Origin: a virus
Taxonomy: Duplodnaviria > Heunggongvirae > Uroviricota > Caudoviricetes
IMG/VR virus record: IMGVR_UViG_3300021387_000529
Span: 1-64,000 of that record
Strand: one strand, 5' to 3'
Length of the DNA: 64,000 nt
The position numbers were made by a program, and so were the translations under genes. Shown here in pieces: positions 721 through 6,344 of this stretch. Below the pieces are notes generated by a model, which saw nothing but the letters and a program-made list of their open reading frames with translations, did no database searches and was not told where the DNA came from. The stretch's first letter is position 1; every line of letters begins with the position of its first letter.

Positions 721-723
721 ACG

Positions 724-795
724 AGCATCTGAGGGGAATCGAACCCCCGCCTCAACCTTGGCAAGGTCGCGTACTAGCCACTATACTACAGATAC
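724..795 (-). tRNA. tRNA-Gly(GCC)
   Basis: Cloverleaf GTATCTG/CAGATGC, anticodon loop TT-GCC-AA, T loop TTCGATT. Confidence 0.93.
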
Positions 796-803
796 ATTTC
801 AAA

Positions 804-877
804 TGGGACCTCGAGGATTTGAACCTCGCACCCAGACATTATGAGTGTCGTGCTCTGACCTAATGAGCTAAGATCCC
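804..877 (-). tRNA. tRNA(CAT), probably Ile2 (lysidine type)
   Basis: Cloverleaf, loop CT-CAT-AA, A73; Ile2 versus Met judged by overall resemblance only. Confidence 0.85.
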
Positions 878-887
878 GTAATTTGTA

Positions 888-1262
888 CTATTCAGCCCAA
901 TCAAGGTCAGCTTTTGCATCACTTGCACGTGAAGCTGCTGTTGAAGCTGGAGCTACATTTTTCTTTGTGGCTTTTCCAACCTTACTGCTCTTTATCTCTG
1001 TTTTCTTCAAAGTTTTAAGCTCAATTGCATCCTTAACTTTTATGTTTTTCTTTGGACCATGTATGACTTTATCATAGTCAAGATGGATTGTATCACGAAT
1101 GCCTGAGATGCTGATGACAGTTTCATCATCCAAAACTTGTCCGATTGTAATTGCGCCATCAATTGAACGTGCACGTCCTGAAATTGCAGTAACAGTGTAT
1201 TTTTCAGCAAAAACTGCTGAAGCCAAGATTGCGCATACAAGAATTGCAATAAGCTTTTTCAT
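888..1262 (-). CDS. Secreted protein with signal peptide (resembles small Treponema periplasmic proteins)
   Basis: MKKLIAILVCAILASAVFA signal peptide; C-terminus STAASRASDA...; AGGAG RBS. Confidence 0.75.
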   Translation of the reverse strand: MKKLIAILVCAILASAVFAEKYTVTAISGRARSIDGAITIGQVLDDETVISISGIRDTIHLDYDKVIHGPKKNIKVKDAIELKTLKKTEIKSSKVGKATKKNVAPASTAASRASDAKADLDWAE

Positions 1263-1474
1263 ATAAGCATTTTCTCCTATCTATAGATTAATTATCATCT
1301 ATTAGGTATTCTATTTGGACTCATAGAACAGTGCTTTCTATGCAATGCTACAGAGTTTATTGGTTTATGGATAAATAATTTTTTACAAAGTTCACATTGA
1401 TAATCTATATATACAATATGAGCTTTACCATTATTAGAATATTCCATATTATAACTTAGTATATTTTGGATTTC

Positions 1475-1547
1475 TGAGCCATCGGGGATTCGAACCCCGA
1501 ACCTAAGGATTAAGAGTCCATCGCGCTAACCGTTGCGCCAATGGCCC
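1475..1547 (-). tRNA. tRNA-Lys(CTT)
   Basis: Cloverleaf, loop CT-CTT-AA, TTCGAAT. Confidence 0.93.
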
Positions 1548-1553
1548 TAACTT

Positions 1554-1626
1554 TGAGCGGTACGGGCTTCGAACCCGTGACCCGCAGATTAAAAGTCTGC
1601 TACTCTACCATCTGAGCTAACCGCCC
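1554..1626 (-). tRNA. tRNA-Lys(TTT)
   Basis: Canonical cloverleaf, loop CT-TTT-AA. Confidence 0.95.
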
Positions 1627-1631
1627 TCAAG

Positions 1632-1714
1632 TGAGCGTGAATGGAGTCGAACCATCCTTGAGGGAAGCCCTCACAGATTAAAAGTCTGTTGCACGACCGA
1701 TGTGCCACACGCCC
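1632..1714 (-). tRNA. tRNA(TTT, Lys anticodon) with long variable arm
   Basis: ACAGA-CTTTTAA-TCTGT anticodon arm followed by GAGGG-CTT-CCCTC variable stem. Confidence 0.85.
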
Positions 1715-1782
1715 ATTAGAATAAAAAATATATGTTTCCATCTAAGCTGGCCACTTTCTATTCCAATGGACTGAACAGAAAG

Positions 1783-1806
1783 TTAGGGCCTTTGTTTCTT
1801 CTTCAT
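1783..1806 (-). CDS. Micro-ORF MKKKQRP, possible Lys-sensing leader
   Basis: AAGGA RBS, ATG AAG AAG AAA CAA AGG CCC TAA, directly upstream of three Lys tRNAs. Confidence 0.35.
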   Translation of the reverse strand: MKKKQRP

Positions 1807-1821
1807 TATTTTTTCCTTTTA

Positions 1822-1893
1822 TGCTGATAGAAAGAGTCGAACTTCCGCCAAGCGGATATGAGCCGCTTGTACTAACCGTTATACTATATCAGC
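1822..1893 (-). tRNA. tRNA-Met(CAT), elongator type
   Basis: Cloverleaf GCTGATA/TATCAGC, AGCGG-CTCATAT-CCGCT. Confidence 0.88.
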
Positions 1894-1928
1894 AAATGTA
1901 AAGTCGTCCCTGTAGGACTTTTTGTTTA

Positions 1929-2000
1929 TCCGCCCTGATTGAGTCGAACAACCTGTAATAGTTTGTAAAACTACCCCTCAACCCGTCGAGGACAGTGCGG
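1929..2000 (-). tRNA. Atypical tRNA-Val(TAC)
   Basis: CCGCACT/AGGGCGG acceptor with one mismatch, G at position 8, GTAGT-TTTACAA-ACTAT, T loop TTCGACT. Confidence 0.65.
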
Positions 2001-2013
2001 TTAAGTTTTCTTT

Positions 2014-2694
2014 TTAAGTCTTTTCTCTTGGACCTTCCCAATCGATATTCACAGACTTAGCATTGTCAACAAAATTAATAATATTTTTTATAGCTTCTTG
2101 GGTATTGTTATAGCAATATTTCCATGGAAGCCTTAAAACTTTCCAACCAATAGACCTGTAATATTCGTCTTTTTGTTTATCTTTTAGTTTTCTCTCAGGC
2201 CACTCATGTTGTGAGCCATCAACTTCAATATAGATTTGCTTTTTTGGCCAAGCAAAATCCATAAACCATCTATTTAAATGATATTCTTCTATAAAGTTTT
2301 GGTCTTGAACTTTATTGTGGATTATTTTTAATATCCATTCTTCAGCATATGACCTTTTACATTTACTCCTAGAAGACCACCAAATACCTCCATTTTTAGC
2401 AATAATTCTTTTTCTAGCCTCAGAACAATGCTTCCTTTGCTCTTCGGTCATCTTATAACCTTTTGTAGCACCATCTACACGATTCGGATTTTTAGAACAG
2501 CTCTTTTCATGAATTGTATTTCCACTATGTGTTGTAAACTTTTTTCCACAAAATTGGCAATAACATTCACAAAAATGGTTTTGAGTTTTTCCATTATTGT
2601 GTTTTTCTTTTCTATGAATTAGAAGCAATCTTCTTGAAATAAATTTTTCAGAACAAATTGCGCAAATCCATCCACTTTCATTTCGCTTTCCCAT
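2014..2694 (-). CDS. Free-standing putative homing endonuclease (C2H2 Zn fingers, NUMOD3-like segment, DUF559/Vsr-like PD-(D/E)xK domain)
   Basis: CxxC...HxxxxH twice; MTEEQRKHCSEA; MDFAW...IEVDGSQH...D..KDEY...GWKVLRLPW. Confidence 0.8.
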   Translation of the reverse strand: MGKRNESGWICAICSEKFISRRLLLIHRKEKHNNGKTQNHFCECYCQFCGKKFTTHSGNTIHEKSCSKNPNRVDGATKGYKMTEEQRKHCSEARKRIIAKNGGIWWSSRSKCKRSYAEEWILKIIHNKVQDQNFIEEYHLNRWFMDFAWPKKQIYIEVDGSQHEWPERKLKDKQKDEYYRSIGWKVLRLPWKYCYNNTQEAIKNIINFVDNAKSVNIDWEGPREKT

Positions 2695-2747
2695 GTTTAA
2701 TTAGTATAAACAAGGGCTCCACTCTACCAAAAAAATAGTGTAAACTT

Positions 2748-2936
2748 CCAGTGCCCAACTGGTTGTCAGAAGCTGATCAACAATGCGCATTAATGCCGTA
2801 TCTCATCTGACTGTAGACAGACTAAACCAATCTGCATTTTACATCTACAGAGTTCAGTTTTGTGGAAAACCTCGCTTAAACCTTGCTTTCTCGATAGGTA
2901 TTAGCAATAACGCCCGACAATCTTTGAAGGCACTGG
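2748..2936 (-). ncRNA. Putative ~190-nt structured ncRNA
   Basis: Terminal stem CCAGTGCC/GGCACTGG, nested TTGTCGGG/TCTGACAA and TGTAGA/TCTACA, hairpin GCAGATT...AGTCTGT. Confidence 0.5.
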
Positions 2937-2983
2937 TGGCCGGATAACCATCGCTTGAATTGATGCCATCTCATACAAGCTAG

Positions 2984-3067
2984 CGGAAGCGGCGAGTCCC
3001 GACCTCGCATTTCCCGAAGGAACCCAACTTAGCAGGCTGGTGGTTTTGCCAATTCACCCACACTTCC
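2984..3067 (-). tRNA. tRNA-Ser(GCT)
   Basis: Type II cloverleaf, G73, loop CT-GCT-AA; non-canonical T loop GTCGGGA. Confidence 0.88.
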
Positions 3068-3075
3068 AAAAAGAG

Positions 3076-3150
3076 TGGACCTAGAGGGATTTGAACCCTA
3101 ACTTTCACATTGCAAGTGTGATATGCTAGCCAGATTACATCACTAAGCCC
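3076..3150 (-). tRNA. tRNA-Ala(TGC), possible 8/4 fold
   Basis: G3:U pair, loop CT-TGC-AA; acceptor GGGCTTAG/CTAGGTCC can form 8 bp with a 4-bp T stem. Confidence 0.85.
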
Positions 3151-3162
3151 ATATAAAAATTT

Positions 3163-3296
3163 TAAACCTACACATATTTTCAAGGGACACTCAAAACTGG
3201 TTTGTCGCTCATAAAAGTTTACGCCATAAAAAATGTGTCTCTACTACTATTGCCTCTATCGCGGAGAGGGATCCGCCAACAGTGCAGGTAGGTTTA
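3163..3296 (-). ncRNA. Putative structured ncRNA
   Basis: Terminal inverted repeat TAAACCTAC/GTAGGTTTA, inner GACAC/GTGTC, GCGGA/TCCGC hairpin whose loop CCTC can pair with downstream GAGG. Confidence 0.4.
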
Positions 3297-3297
3297 G

Positions 3298-3370
3298 AGA
3301 CCAGGGAGGGATTCGAACCCTCAACAGCAGGTTTTGCAGACCTGTTTCCTAGCCTTTCGGATTCCTAGCC
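3298..3370 (-). tRNA. tRNA-Cys(GCA)
   Basis: Cloverleaf, U73, CAGGT-CTGCAAA-ACCTG. Confidence 0.92.
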
Positions 3371-3377
3371 ATAAAAC

Positions 3378-3461
3378 TAACTTTTACGAATTCTCTAATA
3401 TCCACTATTTATAGCATGCATTTTGGGATTCGAACCCATTATAGTATATCCGTAAAAGTTA
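3378..3461 (-). ncRNA. Hairpin RNA containing an isolated T-arm
   Basis: 11-bp terminal stem TAACTTTTACG/CGTAAAAGTTA enclosing TGGG-TTCGAAT-CCCA. Confidence 0.45.
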
Positions 3462-3464
3462 TAG

Positions 3465-3555
3465 CGGAGTCGGTGAGATTCGAACTCACGGAGTCCCTCA
3501 TCGGAACTCGCTCGATTTCAAGTCGAGTGCCTTAAACCAGCTCAGCCACGACTCC
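3465..3555 (-). tRNA. tRNA-Ser(TGA)
   Basis: Type II cloverleaf, G73, loop CT-TGA-AA. Confidence 0.95.
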
Positions 3556-3608
3556 AAATATTCGATGAAGTCCACCATAAATGTCGCATCATCATTGACC
3601 GTCAAGAT

Positions 3609-3683
3609 TAGAGAAGGACGGAATCGAACCATCTGTTATGGAGTCTCACTCCCGTTATAAGTGACCAACTACACTTCTTCTCT
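3609..3683 (-). ncRNA. tRNA-like RNA with aberrant anticodon arm
   Basis: Acceptor AGAGAAG/CTTCTCT, D arm GTG-TAGTTGGT-CAC, T arm GATGG-TTCGATT-CCGTC; anticodon arm GGAGT-GAG-ACTCC has no 7-nt loop. Confidence 0.6.
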
Positions 3684-3698
3684 AAAAATCAAAAGAAA

Positions 3699-3775
3699 CA
3701 CATTATAAAGGATTCGAACCTTTACCTGCGGACGTCCATAAATGGTTGCCGTGCATCTCCATACACCGATAATGC
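3699..3775 (-). ncRNA. tRNA-like RNA with aberrant anticodon arm, embedded in a larger stem (3691-3864)
   Basis: Acceptor GCATTAT/ATAATGT, D arm GTGT/GCAC, T arm AAAGG-TTCGAAT-CCTTT; anticodon region CCA-TTTA-TGG. Confidence 0.55.
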
Positions 3776-3873
3776 ATACAGCTAAAATACACATTGAGTT
3801 GCTCCCTACTTCGCTTACTTACTCGAGTTATTCAGCTTTCGGTATTTAGTTGCTTGTCTCTTTTTAATTTATT

Positions 3874-3945
3874 TGCCACATGAAGTGCTCGAAACTTCCC
3901 CCTCAGATTTTCAGTCTGGTGCGCTGCCATCTACGCTAATGCGGC
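3874..3945 (-). tRNA. tRNA-Phe(GAA)
   Basis: Cloverleaf, loop CT-GAA-AA. Confidence 0.9.
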
Positions 3946-4040
3946 ATAATTAGCAGTTTAAACCTCTGCTCCGTTAGAACCTCTGCCAAACTTCGGAGCT
4001 TCACAGGCGCTTAAAACGTACGCTGCCGTTATCGCAGCTT

Positions 4041-4124
4041 TGGGAACTCCTGGAATCGAACCAGGACGCGGTTTACACCTTGCAGATTTTCAGTCTGTTC
4101 TTCTACCAATTGAAGTAAGCCCCC
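4041..4124 (-). tRNA. tRNA(GAA, Phe anticodon) with long variable arm
   Basis: CAGA-CTGAAAA-TCTG followed by the 16-nt variable region AAGGTGTAAACCGCGT (GGT-GTAA-ACC hairpin). Confidence 0.85.
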
Positions 4125-4178
4125 ATAAAATTGTGGACGGTTTCTAATACTGGAAGGAAACCTAGCAGCCTGTTATAG

Positions 4179-4252
4179 TGGAAGTGGTGAGCATCGAACT
4201 CACTACCTTCTGCGTGCAAGGCAGACGCTCTAGCCAAATGAGCTACACCCCC
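4179..4252 (-). tRNA. tRNA-Ala(TGC)
   Basis: Canonical cloverleaf, G3:U70, loop CT-TGC-AC. Confidence 0.95.
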
Positions 4253-4432
4253 ATAAAATAAACTACAACCAATTGAAAGACTATGTACACTTGTCAGTCA
4301 ATCAACTGTATCGAGATGGTTCACTCATAAGGCTTCCGGCCCGTAGTTACTAGTCTCTCAAGATCGGATTCTTTTTTATTTTAGCTGTTCGCTCGGTTAG
4401 AAGGTTCTCTTGTCGCATAGAAACTAACCTAT

Positions 4433-4506
4433 TGGAAGTGGTGAGATTTGAACTCACGACTTTCAGCTTGCAAAGCTGACACTCTAGCCAACTGAGTTAC
4501 ACCCCC
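4433..4506 (-). tRNA. tRNA-Ala(TGC)
   Basis: Canonical cloverleaf, G3:U70, loop TT-TGC-AA. Confidence 0.95.
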
Positions 4507-4510
4507 AAAA

Positions 4511-4711
4511 AAGCCGTGGCGTACTGCGCGCGAATAGCCACGTTGTTACATGGTTTTTTCCAGAAACCATTGAACGAAAAACTCCCCGAACATTAAGCAT
4601 CTTCGGCACGATACTGCTTTCCCATACGCCCCATCACAGGCGACGCTTCAAAGCTGAACCGCTGAACTGTTTGTGACCAGTCATGATGAACCGTCCGTAT
4701 CAAGTTCATTA
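4511..4711 (-). ncRNA. Putative GC-rich structured ncRNA
   Basis: Series of hairpins (ATGAAC/GTTCAT, CGCC/GGCG, ATGGTTT/AAACCAT, CGTGGC/GCCACG); no ORF with an RBS. Confidence 0.4.
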
Positions 4712-4712
4712 G

Positions 4713-4788
4713 TCGGGGCCGGTGGAATTGAACCACCCTGAACCAACTACCCTTTCAACACCTTATCAGAGTGAGGGGATACGCCCCG
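4713..4788 (-). ncRNA. tRNA-like RNA with rearranged arms (GAT/Ile anticodon-like loop precedes D-loop-like sequence)
   Basis: CGGGGCG acceptor, CAC-TCTGATAAG-GTG within CCCT/AGGG, then TAGTTGGTT, then GGTGG-TTCAATT-CCACC and GGCCCCG-A. Confidence 0.65.
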
Positions 4789-4962
4789 AAAAGTTTCGCT
4801 TTTCACTTGTACTTCGATACTTCGCTAGGTTTACTTCTAACACCTCAAACCTTAAGTCGGTTGATAATATCTCTTCCCGTTTACAGAATGCACTGTCTGT
4901 GGTTTTATACACAGTAATTTGTCATTCCTTACGTCCCGAGTCGAACGGAACTGAATTATCTT

Positions 4963-5046
4963 TAGTACAACGTGGATTCGAACCACTTAATTCGATTTGG
5001 TTTTAAGCCAAATCTTATTCCCTAACCAAACTGGGCGTTTTGTACT
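4963..5046 (-). tRNA. Atypical tRNA-Leu(TAA)
   Basis: AGTACAA/TTGTACT-A, 7-bp anticodon stem GATTTGG-CTTAAAA-CCAAATC, long connectors, no variable stem. Confidence 0.6.
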
Positions 5047-5051
5047 AGTGA

Positions 5052-5125
5052 AGCACCAGAGGGGAGTCGAACCCCCGTCCCCTGATTGGAAGTCAGGAAT
5101 AATTGAACCGTTATACGACTGATGC
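5052..5125 (-). tRNA. tRNA-Gly(TCC)
   Basis: Cloverleaf, U73, loop CT-TCC-AA. Confidence 0.92.
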
Positions 5126-5170
5126 ATTTTCATTTTGTCATTCAGTATTAAATTAACTGATTGACGTTTA

Positions 5171-5200
5171 TTATATATGAAAAAATTTCAAAATGTTCAA
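5171..5200 (-). promoter_or_regulatory. Putative early promoter TTGAA-N15-TCATATATAA
   Basis: Same motif and spacing as five other copies in the window. Confidence 0.7.
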
Positions 5201-5230
5201 AAAATTTTTCACATTTTTTCATATATTGAG

Positions 5231-5303
5231 GGTGGCCGCTGGGAGTTGAACCCAGGAGAACCGGATCCACAATCCGGCGCATTAACCGCTCTGCCACGGC
5301 CAC
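5231..5303 (-). tRNA. tRNA-His(GTG)
   Basis: Cloverleaf, C73, loop TT-GTG-GA; genomic -1 base is T rather than G. Confidence 0.93.
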
Positions 5304-5305
5304 AG

Positions 5306-5387
5306 TCGATGAGAGGGGATTTGAACCCCTAAGGCTTTCGCCATAGCGACCTCAACGCTACGTGTATACCAATTCCACCACTCATCG
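5306..5387 (-). tRNA. tRNA-Leu(GAG)
   Basis: Type II cloverleaf, A73, loop TT-GAG-GT. Confidence 0.93.
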
Positions 5388-5393
5388 AAAAAT

Positions 5394-5419
5394 AAAAAAG
5401 CAACTCTTTCGAGTTGCTT
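5394..5419 (-). terminator. Intrinsic terminator at head of tRNA array (putative attenuator)
   Basis: AAGCAACTC-GAAA-GAGTTGC-TTTTTT; 5' arm overlaps ACCCAAGC, which is complementary to GCTTGGGT at the end of the leader ORF. Confidence 0.8.
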
Positions 5420-5467
5420 GGGTTTGTTTATTCAGGATGTCACTCTTTATTCTTTTAAATCATCCTA

Positions 5468-5614
5468 TTACCCAAGCTTTCCTCCAATAATAAACGCATG
5501 TTTTGCAAGGAGTGAACTTACACATGACACACCACATCCATGGCCTGCAAACATTGCGGCTTTTGAGAGTGAGAATGCTTTTGCTGTCATAATGAAACTC
5601 TTTACAAAATTCAT
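5468..5614 (-). CDS. Putative 48-aa attenuator leader peptide MNFVKSFIMTAKAFSLSKAAMFAGHGCGVSCVSSLLAKHAFIIGGKLG
   Basis: TAAGGA RBS, ATG...TAA TAG; codons mirror the downstream tRNA anticodons; below ORF-track cutoff. Confidence 0.7.
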   Translation of the reverse strand: MNFVKSFIMTAKAFSLSKAAMFAGHGCGVSCVSSLLAKHAFIIGGKLG

Positions 5615-5756
5615 TTCCGTATTCCTTATTTGAGTTGCTGTTAATCAGCAGCTTTATATTTTATAGATTAATTAGTTAGTTGCGTTTTTTCGCAAAAATT
5701 ACCAATTTTTTTAAGAGCGATAAGGTTGCATTTATCGCTCTTATATGAATTAAAGA

Positions 5757-6344
5757 TTAATTATCTTCATTCAATTTTTCATCATTCTTTTCCTCAATCT
5801 TTTCCTCAATCTTGAGAGAACCACCAAGAAGTTTCTTAGTTGGCTTTACCTCAGGTCTTGGGTCAACCGTAATAGAAAGAAGTCCGTCCTGCAAGTCACA
5901 TTTTGCTGTTGATGCATCATGGAAACGTGGGTCGAATGTAAAAGACAAAACTTCGTCAGTAACGAGTTTCAATCCTTTATATTCGTATGCCTTGTCTTTA
6001 TTCTCTTTGCGGCCGAATGAAACGATGATTTTGTTGTCATCAATTTCTGCCTTAAACTCATTTTCCTTAACACCGCAAGCTGCGATGTCGATGTGAAGTT
6101 CCTTAGTTTCAGGGTCTACATATTTGCTGCTTGGAGGGAATGCCGAATTGCAAGCGATGCGATTTGTTTTTGGAGGTGTCAAACGCATAAATTCGTCTGT
6201 AAAATCATTTGCTCCTGTGAACAAACCTTCGAGCATGTCTGAAAATGTTGGGATTTTTCCAAGAATAGACTCTGCGTTCTCATCATTGATGGAACCTTTC
6301 TGAACATTACCATTGTGGTTAATGTAATAAGTACCTTTCATCAT
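5757..6344 (-). CDS. Small heat-shock protein (Hsp20/alpha-crystallin)
   Basis: PP...LHIDIAACGVKENEFKAEIDDNKIIVS...AKCDLQDGLLSITV; start reassigned to ATG 6344 after GAGGAG RBS. Confidence 0.85.
   Translation of the reverse strand: MMKGTYYINHNGNVQKGSINDENAESILGKIPTFSDMLEGLFTGANDFTDEFMRLTPPKTNRIACNSAFPPSSKYVDPETKELHIDIAACGVKENEFKAEIDDNKIIVSFGRKENKDKAYEYKGLKLVTDEVLSFTFDPRFHDASTAKCDLQDGLLSITVDPRPEVKPTKKLLGGSLKIEEKIEEKNDEKLNEDN

What the first reader, a model, noticed from the sequence alone, without database searches (positions are those of the whole stretch)
5394..5676. Candidate multi-codon translational attenuator gating the phage tRNA array
Seen (minus strand): ACTAATT motif (5670-5676), TAAGGA RBS, 48-codon ORF (5614-5468), intrinsic terminator (5419-5394), then the first tRNA (5387). 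GCTTGGGT at the ORF's last codons and stop is complementary to ACCCAAGC, which overlaps the terminator's 5' arm, and AGGATG/CATCCT nests inside, so antiterminator and terminator helices compete. 46 of 48 codons are for amino acids with tRNAs in the array (A7 S6 G6 K5 F5 L4 M3 V3 I3 H2 C2; exceptions N2 and T10). D, E, P, Q, R, W and Y are absent from both peptide and array. The match extends to isoacceptors: Leu only CTC/CTT (tRNA GAG), Ser only TCA/AGT (TGA, GCT), Val only GTA/GTG (TAC), Lys AAA and AAG (TTT, CTT). Established: trp/his-type attenuation, and phage tRNAs can replace host tRNAs cut by anticodon nucleases. Inference: a ribosome reaching the stop masks GCTTGGGT so the terminator forms, whereas stalling on any depleted tRNA allows read-through into the replacement tRNAs. 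Caveat: a second promoter motif at 5171-5200 could transcribe all but the Leu and His tRNAs independently.
Basis: partly seen in the sequence, partly recalled or inferred. Interest (0 to 1): 0.92.

Follow-up and report, generated by a model that had tools for sequence, protein, structure and literature searches.

The report
Leader-peptide attenuators gating phage tRNA arrays
In this 300-kb rumen phage, each of the two blocks of tRNA genes sits behind a tiny translated "test" gene written almost only in the amino acids those tRNAs carry and wired to a switchable transcription stop, so the phage probably makes each tRNA set only when ribosomes read those codons slowly; I found no published case of this control for tRNA genes.

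Summary
The promoter-like motif, RBS, 48-codon ORF, terminator and abutting tRNA-Leu are all at the stated coordinates. One correction: this genome has no Val or Ile(GAU) tRNA, so 40 of 48 residues are served by its own array. The figure of 46 holds only for close relatives' arrays.

The decisive test lay outside the window. The 300,878-bp phage has a second tRNA array with the complementary amino-acid set (T, D, N, Q, E, P, Y, R, W). That array is preceded by the same cassette: ACTAATT motif, RBS, a 41-codon ORF, terminator, tRNA. 37 of the 41 residues are array-2 amino acids.

Among all 1,328 ATG ORFs of 30-80 aa in the genome, leader 1 has the most array-1-like composition and leader 2 the most array-2-like. 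In both cassettes the last two codons plus the stop pair with the terminator's 5' arm, in the same register.

Five near-identical relatives vary only at unpaired positions between stop and T-tract. More distant relatives and phage T5 lack such cassettes.

I read this as ribosome-mediated attenuation giving feedback control of tRNA supply (about 0.72). No paper was found. This scan has noted the same idea in other giant phages; I did not check those notes. No experiment exists.

The parts
5670..5676 (-). ACTAATT gene-start (promoter-like) motif of leader 1
   Evidence: Genome-wide, 47 of 62 ACTAATT sites are followed within 67 nt by an ATG opening an ORF of 40 aa or more (27% for random positions). 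32 of them lie 4-9 nt before the ATG; the rest have a GGAG in between. The same extended motif (ACTAATTA.T.TATAA) precedes leader 2. Invariant in 5 relatives.
5632..5652 (-). 5'-UTR hairpin ahead of the RBS
   Evidence: In L021 and L022 a C-to-T change turns a C.A mismatch into a U-A pair. Role unknown. Absent from leader 2.
5623..5628 (-). Shine-Dalgarno-like TAAGGA, 8 nt before the ATG
   Evidence: Invariant in relatives.
5468..5614 (-). Leader ORF 1: 48 codons plus TAA, followed by an in-frame TAG
   Evidence: It holds 28 residues of array-1-only amino acids against 2 of array-2-only. It has the top composition score of 1,328 small ORFs. 39 of 48 codons are cognate to array-1 tRNAs against 32.6 +/- 2.0 expected under synonymous resampling (P 8e-4). 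No homologue beyond 98%-identical copies, no Pfam or PHROG family.
5470..5477 (-). Antiterminator 5' strand GCTTGGGT (end of ORF plus first base of the stop)
   Evidence: Invariant in relatives.
5434..5466 (-). Inner hairpin AGGATG / CATCCT with a 21-nt loop
   Evidence: The arms are invariant and 4 loop positions vary among 5 relatives.
5416..5423 (-). Antiterminator 3' strand ACCCAAGC, overlapping 4 nt of the terminator's 5' arm
5388..5419 (-). Intrinsic terminator: 9-bp stem, GAAA loop, TTTTATTTTT
   Evidence: Invariant in relatives. The tRNA starts at the next base, so tRNA-Leu and tRNA-His can be transcribed only by read-through.
723..5387 (-). tRNA array 1: Leu(GAG), His, Gly(UCC), Ala x3, Phe x2, Ser(UGA), Cys, Ser(GCU), Met/CAU x2, Lys x3, Gly(GCC)
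   Evidence: ARAGORN and Rfam (17 above the gathering score). The ARAGORN 'Leu(taa)' at 4964-5036 is not supported by Rfam.
5170..5199 (-). Sigma70-like promoter (TGAACA-N18-TATAAT) between tRNA-His and tRNA-Gly: a possible bypass of the attenuator
   Evidence: Consensus match only.

Best explanation
Each of the phage's two tRNA arrays is controlled by a ribosome-mediated transcription attenuator whose leader peptide samples the codons served by that array.

Shown by sequence: transcription would start at an ACTAATT-type phage promoter, and a ribosome can load on the leader (48 codons for array 1, 41 for array 2). The last two codons plus the first base of the stop form the 5' strand of an antiterminator helix. 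Its 3' strand overlaps the 5' arm of an intrinsic terminator that directly precedes the first tRNA.

Inferred mechanism:
- If every codon is decoded quickly, the ribosome reaches the stop before RNA polymerase has made the terminator. It covers the antiterminator strand, the terminator forms, and the array is not transcribed.
- If decoding of any sampled codon is slow because its charged tRNA is scarce (host tRNA loss, cleavage, or heavy phage demand), the ribosome lags. The antiterminator then forms first and polymerase reads through into the tRNA genes.
- With 40-odd sensing codons of 11-12 kinds, the leader probably integrates total decoding time, like a speedometer, rather than relying on one hard stall.

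The result is closed-loop, array-specific control of tRNA supply. RNase P would then release tRNA-Leu from the leader transcript.
For: 1. Independent replication. The genome has two arrays with nearly complementary amino-acid sets. A cassette of the same build precedes each.
2. Composition.
- Leader 1 has 28 array-1-only residues against 2 array-2-only.
- Leader 2 has 31 array-2-only against 4 array-1-only.
- They are the single highest and single lowest of 1,328 small ORFs in six frames.
- 0 of 69,736 and 5 of 71,346 protein windows are as extreme.
3. The match is not just hydrophobic versus polar.
- Among K, H, D, E, R, Q and N, leader 1 uses 7 of 8 K/H (P 8e-4).
- Leader 2 uses 0 of 17 K/H in its first 37 residues (P 0.004).
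- For A/G/S/C against T/P/W/Y the counts are 21 of 22 and 2 of 15 (P 9e-5 and 6e-4).
4. Codon level.
- Leader 1 has 39 of 48 cognate codons against 32.6 expected (P 8e-4).
- Against the clade's array it has 45 of 48 (P below 5e-5).
- Leu is CTY in 4 of 4 codons in leader 1 (tRNA GAG) and TTR in 4 of 5 in leader 2 (tRNAs CAA and UAA); Fisher P 0.04.
5. Structure.
- The antiterminator is the MFE structure while the 3' arm is unmade, and is nearly iso-energetic with the terminator afterwards: -23.4 against -24.4 kcal/mol for leader 1, -18.7 against -18.9 to -21.8 for leader 2.
- Stop-region to terminator-arm duplexes are -15.2 (P 1.5e-4) and -8.3 kcal/mol (P 0.013).
- Both use the same register: the third base of an AAG codon through the first base of the stop.
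- Three of leader 2's four off-set residues (K38, K39, C41) lie in this paired, ribosome-masked tail.
6. There is no room for a promoter. The T-tract abuts tRNA-Leu(GAG), and 30 nt separate it from tRNA-Leu(CAA).
7. Among five relatives, all 7 variable columns between stop and T-tract are unpaired and none lies in a stem (Fisher P 0.001). The ORF varies at 3 of 147 positions, against 36 of 85 in the adjoining tRNA-Leu.
8. Contigs from rumen RNA libraries of more than one study run from the leader across the terminator into tRNA-Leu.
Against: - No experiment exists, and translation of the ORFs is not shown.
- The RNA-library contigs could be carried-over DNA and give no ends or levels.
- All comparative data come from near-identical relatives, so there is no compensatory change. 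Jumbo phages related at 54-60% (Ro60 protein) show no such cassette in the tRNA regions fetched, and some use sigma70-like promoters instead.
- Leader 2 shows no codon-level excess beyond the amino-acid match (P 0.27).
- This genome lacks Val and Ile(GAU) tRNAs, yet leader 1 keeps 6 such codons.
- The three amino-acid polymorphisms seen (S17L, A23P, Y37H) go to amino acids or codons outside the array.
- A loose MFE screen finds some upstream partner for the 5' arm at 79 of 153 terminator-like sites, so folding alone is weak evidence.
- No trp-type 1:2 pause hairpin was identified.
- The polymerase that uses ACTAATT promoters, and its response to hairpin terminators, are unknown.
- Internal promoters could express later tRNAs independently: the sigma70-like site at 5199-5170, and ACTAATT sites ahead of two homing-endonuclease genes inside the arrays.
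Confidence: 0.72

Rival explanations
1. The leaders are translated and matched to their arrays, but the match serves another purpose. For example, each could be a small protein whose synthesis depends on, or reports, the neighbouring tRNAs. Or its translation could affect transcript stability, processing or Rho loading rather than hairpin choice at the terminator.
For: The composition match shows a link between peptide and array, not the mechanism. Leader 1 is an amphipathic, hydrophobic peptide that could be a membrane peptide. No pause hairpin was found.
Against: The peptides have no homologues beyond 98%-identical copies and no family. Both stop regions pair with the terminator's 5' arm in the same register, which this reading leaves unexplained. 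The ORF lies upstream of the terminator, so it is made before the tRNAs, not after them.
Confidence: 0.12
2. These are ordinary small phage genes, each with its own terminator, that happen to lie upstream of the tRNA arrays. The composition match is coincidence, and the tRNAs are made by leaky termination or from other promoters.
For: Small ORFs among phage tRNA genes are common: T5 has more than ten. Distant relatives lack the cassette. A sigma70-like promoter lies inside array 1.
Against: The two ORFs are the two extremes of 1,328, each next to the matching array. The partition holds within residue classes. Stop-to-terminator complementarity has P of 1.5e-4 and 0.013. The T5 ORFs show neither terminators nor such a match.
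Confidence: 0.05
3. It is a purely RNA-level switch that binds tRNA or another ligand directly (T-box-like or riboswitch-like), and the ORFs are not translated.
For: The default fold without a ribosome is the antiterminator. Stems are conserved.
Against: No T-box or other Rfam leader family reaches threshold; the only hit is Phe_leader at E 0.85, 22 bits against a gathering score of 55. An untranslated RNA gives no reason for an open frame with an RBS whose amino-acid content mirrors the array, found twice.
Confidence: 0.04
4. The plus strand is the functional one: a 71-codon TTG-started ORF at 5418-5633, flanked by hairpins that also look like plus-strand terminators.
For: Both hairpins (5398-5419 and 5632-5654) score as terminator-like on the plus strand, and the ORF is open.
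Against: The TTG start lies inside the hairpin stem and has no RBS. This reading explains neither the composition match on the minus strand nor the twin cassette at array 2.
Confidence: 0.02

Closest known systems
Multivalent leader-peptide attenuators of enterobacterial branched-chain amino-acid operons (ilvGMEDA and ilvBN leaders), and the single-amino-acid leaders trpL, hisL, leuL, thrL and pheL (my own knowledge; pheL reviewed in PMC3082878)
   Same: A short translated leader, an intrinsic terminator before the first regulated gene, and a competing antiterminator whose 5' strand lies at the leader's stop, so that a ribosome at the stop favours termination and a lagging ribosome favours read-through. 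The ilv leaders sense several amino acids at once.
   Different: The regulated genes are tRNAs, not biosynthetic enzymes. The leader samples 11-12 amino acids spread over 40-odd codons, not a run of 3-7 regulatory codons. No 1:2 protector or pause hairpin was seen, so the untranslated default is read-through. It is phage-encoded and occurs as two complementary leaders in one genome. There is no Rfam leader-family match.
pheST (pheM leader) attenuator of E. coli phenylalanyl-tRNA synthetase (my own knowledge)
   Same: Leader-peptide attenuation applied to a component of the decoding machinery, with the supply of charged tRNA as the signal.
   Different: It controls a synthetase for one amino acid, not tRNA genes. 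It is a bacterial chromosomal operon.
T-box riboswitches (RF00230)
   Same: A terminator/antiterminator switch that reads tRNA status and controls translation-related genes.
   Different: A T-box binds uncharged tRNA directly through a specifier codon and the T-box sequence, without translation. No T-box match was found here, and each T-box reads one tRNA.
Small ORFs interspersed in the phage T5 tRNA region (NC_005859, T5.057-T5.074)
   Same: Short ORFs and promoters lie among phage tRNA genes.
   Different: The T5 ORFs have ordinary mixed compositions, abut the tRNAs without a terminator, and show no match to the downstream tRNAs.

Membership tests
Ribosome-mediated leader-peptide transcription attenuator (trp/his/ilv type) | Short ORF with a ribosome-binding site upstream of the regulated genes, in the same transcript | tested here: met
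   Leader 1: TAAGGA, 8 nt, ATG, 48 codons. Leader 2: TAAGGAG, 12 nt, ATG, 41 codons. Both follow an ACTAATT gene-start motif. Translation itself was not tested.
Ribosome-mediated leader-peptide transcription attenuator (trp/his/ilv type) | Leader codons enriched for the amino acid(s) tied to the regulated genes | tested here: met
   Met in a modified form: the leaders hold the amino acids of the downstream tRNAs. They are the extremes of 1,328 ORFs, the match holds within residue classes, and leader 1 shows a codon-level excess. There is no tandem run of one codon as in hisL or trpL.
Ribosome-mediated leader-peptide transcription attenuator (trp/his/ilv type) | Intrinsic terminator between the leader ORF and the first regulated gene | tested here: met
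   Hairpins of 9 bp and 11 bp with T-tracts lie 1 nt and 30 nt before the first tRNA.
Ribosome-mediated leader-peptide transcription attenuator (trp/his/ilv type) | Mutually exclusive antiterminator whose 5' strand is covered by a ribosome at the leader's stop codon | tested here: met
   In silico only. See the co-transcriptional folds and duplex P values of 1.5e-4 and 0.013. The register at the stop is identical in both. Stems are invariant and loops variable in relatives.
Ribosome-mediated leader-peptide transcription attenuator (trp/his/ilv type) | Protector or pause hairpin (1:2) that synchronises polymerase and ribosome and gives termination without translation | tested here: inconclusive
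   Only weak local pairings of the last ORF codons appear (-9 kcal/mol). The inner hairpins between stop and terminator could pause polymerase, but this cannot be tested here.
Ribosome-mediated leader-peptide transcription attenuator (trp/his/ilv type) | Read-through responds to the supply of charged tRNA | not testable with these tools
   Contigs from RNA libraries bridge the terminator but give no levels or ends.
Rfam leader families (Trp_leader, His_leader, Leu_leader, Thr_leader, Phe_leader) | Covariance-model score at or above the gathering threshold | tested here: not met
   No hit for leader 1. For leader 2 the only hit is Phe_leader at 22.3 bits against 55, E 0.85.
T-box riboswitch | T-box covariance-model match (specifier loop plus T-box sequence) | tested here: not met
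   No RF00230 hit at E of 1 or less in either leader region.

The most novel reading that the evidence does not exclude
Giant phages run closed-loop control of their own decoding capacity. Each tRNA array is switched by a long multivalent leader that acts as a translation speedometer for exactly the codons that array serves. The phage therefore tops up any tRNA set that the host withdraws, degrades or cleaves, and shuts the array off once decoding is fast again. This would be the first attenuator known to regulate tRNA genes. It would also be a natural, modular sensor of isoacceptor-specific decoding speed.
Probability: 0.6. Interest if true: 0.9.

Novelty: new variant of a known kind. Interest (0 to 1): 0.85.

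Why it matters
How phages regulate their tRNA genes is largely unknown, and these genes are usually treated as constitutive codon-usage patches or as decoys against anticodon nucleases. A leader that reads the decoding speed of its own array's codons would show three things. Phages sense the state of the host's tRNA pool in real time. Transcription attenuation, a textbook mechanism for amino-acid operons, has been re-used for tRNA supply. The split of tRNAs into separate arrays is a regulatory unit and not an accident.

The two complementary leaders in one genome provide a built-in control for experiments: each should respond to a different set of tRNA insults. The cassettes are about 290 nt long and should be portable. 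They could serve as reporters of isoacceptor-specific decoding speed or of anticodon-nuclease activity.

Tried and rejected
- **Peptide homology.** Both leaders find only 98%-identical copies among 5.8 billion proteins, and no Pfam or PHROG family. No distant alignment and no dN/dS was possible.
- **INPHARED.** blastn of the locus hit only tRNA fragments.
- **Co-variation in distant relatives.**
  - The neighbour protein of array 2 gave no locus.
  - Ro60-anchored loci at 54-60% identity (L007-L019) and SprT/HD-anchored loci (L026-L037) gave no cassette. Neither did the tRNA clusters of three whole relatives (G001-G003).
- These were searched with a terminator-plus-ORF filter, by eye, and with a composition scan.
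- **Phage T5 tRNA region.** It has small ORFs but no terminators and no match.
- **Genome-wide MFE screen for antiterminators.** It was not discriminating: 79 of 153 sites found a partner. I replaced it with perfect-complement and duplex-energy tests.
- **Equilibrium folding of the full leader.** It simply gives the terminator. Only prefix folds are informative.
- **RNA libraries.**
  - All runs are kept as contigs, so 3' ends, strand and read-through ratio could not be measured.
  - One contig stops at 5450 and others have gaps; this proves nothing.
- **Additional cassettes inside the arrays.** ACTAATT at 2705 and at genome 144,371 drive homing-endonuclease genes, not leaders.
- **Plus-strand ORF 5418-5633.** Rejected: the TTG start lies inside the hairpin and there is no RBS.
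- **Literature.** Eight full-text searches found no account of leader-peptide control of tRNA genes. The library lacks most subscription journals.

Full report
**What is there**

The window is the first 64 kb of a 300,878-bp phage genome with direct terminal repeats and 35% G+C. Holders of the sequence are mostly bovine gut samples.

On the minus strand an Hsp20-like gene ends at 5757. The following features come next:
- ACTAATT at 5676-5670.
- A 5'-UTR hairpin at 5652-5632.
- TAAGGA at 5628-5623.
- A 48-codon ORF at 5614-5468, ending TAA and then an in-frame TAG.
- A nested hairpin, AGGATG/CATCCT.
- A 9-bp GC-containing hairpin at 5419-5398 with TTTTATTTTT.
- tRNA-Leu(GAG) at the very next base (5387), which opens a 4.7-kb array.

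One point is not. ARAGORN and Rfam find no tRNA-Val or tRNA-Ile(GAU) in this array. Both are present in close relatives. Here a DUF559 homing-endonuclease gene has replaced tRNA-Val, and the Ile segment is deleted. So 40 of 48 residues, not 46, are served by this genome's own array.

**The decisive test: a second array**

All 41 tRNA genes of the genome lie in two arrays (Rfam confirms 23 in the second).
- Array 1 carries G, A, S, C, K, H, F, L and M.
- Array 2 (genome 138,071-147,708, plus strand) carries T, D, N, Q, E, P, Y, R and W. It also has L, F, M and a UUA-anticodon suppressor.

Immediately upstream of it lies the same kind of cassette:
- ACTAATT at 137,812.
- TAAGGAG.
- A 41-codon ORF at 137,844-137,969 (L005:3845-3970), ending TGA and then TAA.
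- Nested hairpins.
- An 11-bp terminator at 138,007-138,035 with a T-tract.
- tRNA-Leu(CAA) 30 nt later.

This leader has T7, L5, Q4, N4, R4, E3, D3, Y3, P2, W1 and M1. Only S1, K2 and C1 fall outside the array-2 set.

**Statistics of the match**

I scored each ORF as array-1-only residues minus array-2-only residues, divided by its length.
- Leader 1 scores +0.54 and leader 2 scores -0.66.
- Among all 1,328 ATG-started ORFs of 30-80 aa in six frames, these are the single highest and the single lowest. The runners-up score +0.38 and -0.42.
- Of about 70,000 windows of the same length in the genome's long ORFs, 0 and 5 are as extreme.

The match is not just hydrophobic versus polar:
- Among K, H, D, E, R, Q and N, leader 1 uses K or H in 7 of 8 cases (P 8e-4).
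- Leader 2 uses none in the 17 such residues of its first 37 positions (P 0.004).
- For A/G/S/C against T/P/W/Y the counts are 21 of 22 and 2 of 15 (P 9e-5 and 6e-4).

At codon level, with the peptide held fixed and codons resampled at genome usage:
- Leader 1 has 39 of 48 codons cognate by strict wobble, against 32.6 +/- 2.0 expected (P 8e-4).
- Against the clade's array it has 45 of 48 (P below 5e-5). It avoids the common GCT, GTT and TCT codons.
- Leader 2 shows no such excess (31 of 41 against 29.2, P 0.27).
- Leucine is served by different isoacceptors in the two arrays. It is CTY in 4 of 4 codons in leader 1 and TTR in 4 of 5 in leader 2 (Fisher P 0.04).

**RNA switch**

Folding growing prefixes shows the following in both leaders.
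- As soon as the terminator's 5' arm is made, it pairs with the end of the ORF. This remains the MFE structure until the 3' arm is almost complete.
- The two states then differ by about 1-3 kcal/mol.
- With the antiterminator in place, leader 1's terminator shrinks to a 5-bp A/U-rich stem.

The 5' strand of the antiterminator has the same register in both. It runs from the third base of an AAG codon, through the last two codons, to the first base of the stop. A ribosome at the stop would cover it and the first inner hairpin arm.

The stop-region/terminator-arm duplexes are -15.2 and -8.3 kcal/mol. Against random genome 15-mers these have P of 1.5e-4 and 0.013. Leader 1's terminator is the only one of 54 strict terminators in the genome whose 5' arm has a perfect upstream complement of 7 nt or more. 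A looser MFE screen was uninformative.

Three of leader 2's four off-set residues, and its one non-cognate Arg codon, lie in this paired tail. A stall there could not signal read-through, which fits the model.

The stop codon lies 66-70 nt before the end of the terminator stem in both. That is too far for a terminating ribosome to mask the terminator itself.

**Promoter**

ACTAATT is a gene-start motif.
- 47 of 62 copies precede an ATG-started ORF of 40 aa or more within 67 nt, against 27% for random positions.
- 32 of them lie only 4-9 nt before the ATG, which suggests leaderless or near-leaderless mRNAs.
- The rest have a GGAG in between, as both leaders do.

The extended motif is shared by the two leaders.

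**Relatives**

Four near-identical contigs carry leader 1 and one carries leader 2.
- Between stop and T-tract, 7 columns vary. All are in loops or spacers and none is in the 35 stem positions (Fisher P 0.001).
- The promoter, the RBS and the last five codons are invariant.
- The ORF varies at 3 of 147 positions, while the adjoining tRNA-Leu varies at 36 of 85, including its anticodon (GAG or AAG).

This is conservation, not covariation. The three peptide polymorphisms (S17L, A23P, Y37H) do not respect the array sets.

I found no cassette in these sources:
- Jumbo phages related at 54-60% (Ro60 anchor).
- The SprT/HD-anchored loci.
- The tRNA clusters of three whole relatives.
- Phage T5.

Some of the relatives place sigma70-like promoters directly before tRNA blocks. 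In what I could reach, the element is confined to a narrow clade.

Earlier notes of this scan describe the same idea in many other giant phages. I could not check them, and they are not used as evidence.

**Expression**

Rumen metatranscriptome assemblies hold the locus. One 291-nt contig with no mismatch (5329-5619) runs from the leader ORF across the terminator into tRNA-Leu. So does a 1.1-kb contig of a relative, found in two runs filed under different studies. This is compatible with read-through transcripts. Contigs cannot exclude DNA carry-over and give no ends.

**Interpretation**

The best reading is a ribosome-mediated attenuator of the trp/ilv kind, re-used to control tRNA genes. Fast decoding of the array's own codons would give termination, and slow decoding would give read-through. 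This amounts to product feedback, separately for each array.

What is shown, and what is inferred:
- Shown: the anatomy, its duplication, the statistical link between leader and array, the competing helices in silico, and the conservation pattern.
- Inferred: translation of the leaders, the direction and size of the response, the "speedometer" behaviour, and any link to anticodon nucleases.

It is not a member of any Rfam leader family or of the T-box family, and it lacks a clear 1:2 hairpin. So I file it as a new variant of leader-peptide attenuation, not a member of a described family. Eight full-text searches found no published account.

Noticed in passing
window 1920-2731 (-); compare L002:10306-10379: A DUF559/Vsr-like homing-endonuclease gene with a C2H2 zinc finger (ORF 2694-2014) has an ACTAATT motif 4 nt before its ATG. 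It replaces all but the last 18 nt of tRNA-Val(TAC), which is intact in relatives. The arrays of near-identical phages are mosaics of gained and lost tRNAs.
   Followed up: partly
genome 144,371-145,000 (+) = L005:10372-11001: A GIY-YIG homing-endonuclease gene lies inside array 2, again started by ACTAATT a few bases before the ATG. It sits between tRNA-Glu(CUC) and tRNA-Trp.
   Followed up: no
genome 143,689-143,761 (+) = L005:9690-9762: A tRNA with anticodon UUA (ochre suppressor type; Rfam tRNA, 47 bits) lies in array 2. Both leaders end in tandem stops of two kinds (TAA-TAG and TGA-TAA). I did not examine whether the phage recodes TAA late in infection.
   Followed up: no
genome 136,983-137,361 (+) = L005:2984-3364: A phage-encoded tmRNA (Rfam 68 bits) lies about 450 nt upstream of leader 2's promoter. 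The 137,400-137,800 stretch between them has no assigned function.
   Followed up: no
genome-wide, e.g. window 10951, 18902, 24898, 28427, 36848: ACTAATT lies 4-9 nt upstream of the ATG of 32 genes that have no Shine-Dalgarno sequence. This suggests a phage promoter class that produces leaderless or near-leaderless mRNAs.
   Followed up: partly
window 5305-5387 (-) and homologues in L001, L002, L021, L022: tRNA-Leu just after the invariant leader is hypervariable among otherwise 95%-identical phages. 36 of 85 columns vary, the changes look paired in the stems, and the anticodon is GAG or AAG. tRNA-Leu(CAA) after leader 2 behaves the same way in L020.
   Followed up: partly
window 4964-5036 (-) and 3609-3683 (-): ARAGORN's 73-nt 'tRNA-Leu(taa)' has no Rfam support and lies at a rearrangement junction relative to L001 and L002. 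A sub-threshold tRNA-like element (27.8 bits) sits where relatives have an odd 'Pro(ggg)' call. These are possible pseudo-tRNAs or tRNA-like RNAs.
   Followed up: no
window 5398-5419 and 5632-5654 (+): Both hairpins flanking leader 1 also score as plus-strand terminators, and they enclose an antisense 71-codon TTG ORF (5418-5633). This is probably incidental.
   Followed up: partly
L018:2690-2770 and 3280-3330: In a jumbo phage related at about 57% (Ro60), tRNA blocks are preceded by near-consensus TTTACA-N17-TATAAT promoters and have no leader ORF. This is a different solution for the same genes.
   Followed up: no
L043:14628-14756 (-) (phage T5 gene T5.070): A 42-aa zinc-ribbon-like peptide with 6 Cys lies directly upstream of T5 tRNA-Cys. 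There is no terminator between them, so this is probably coincidence.
   Followed up: no
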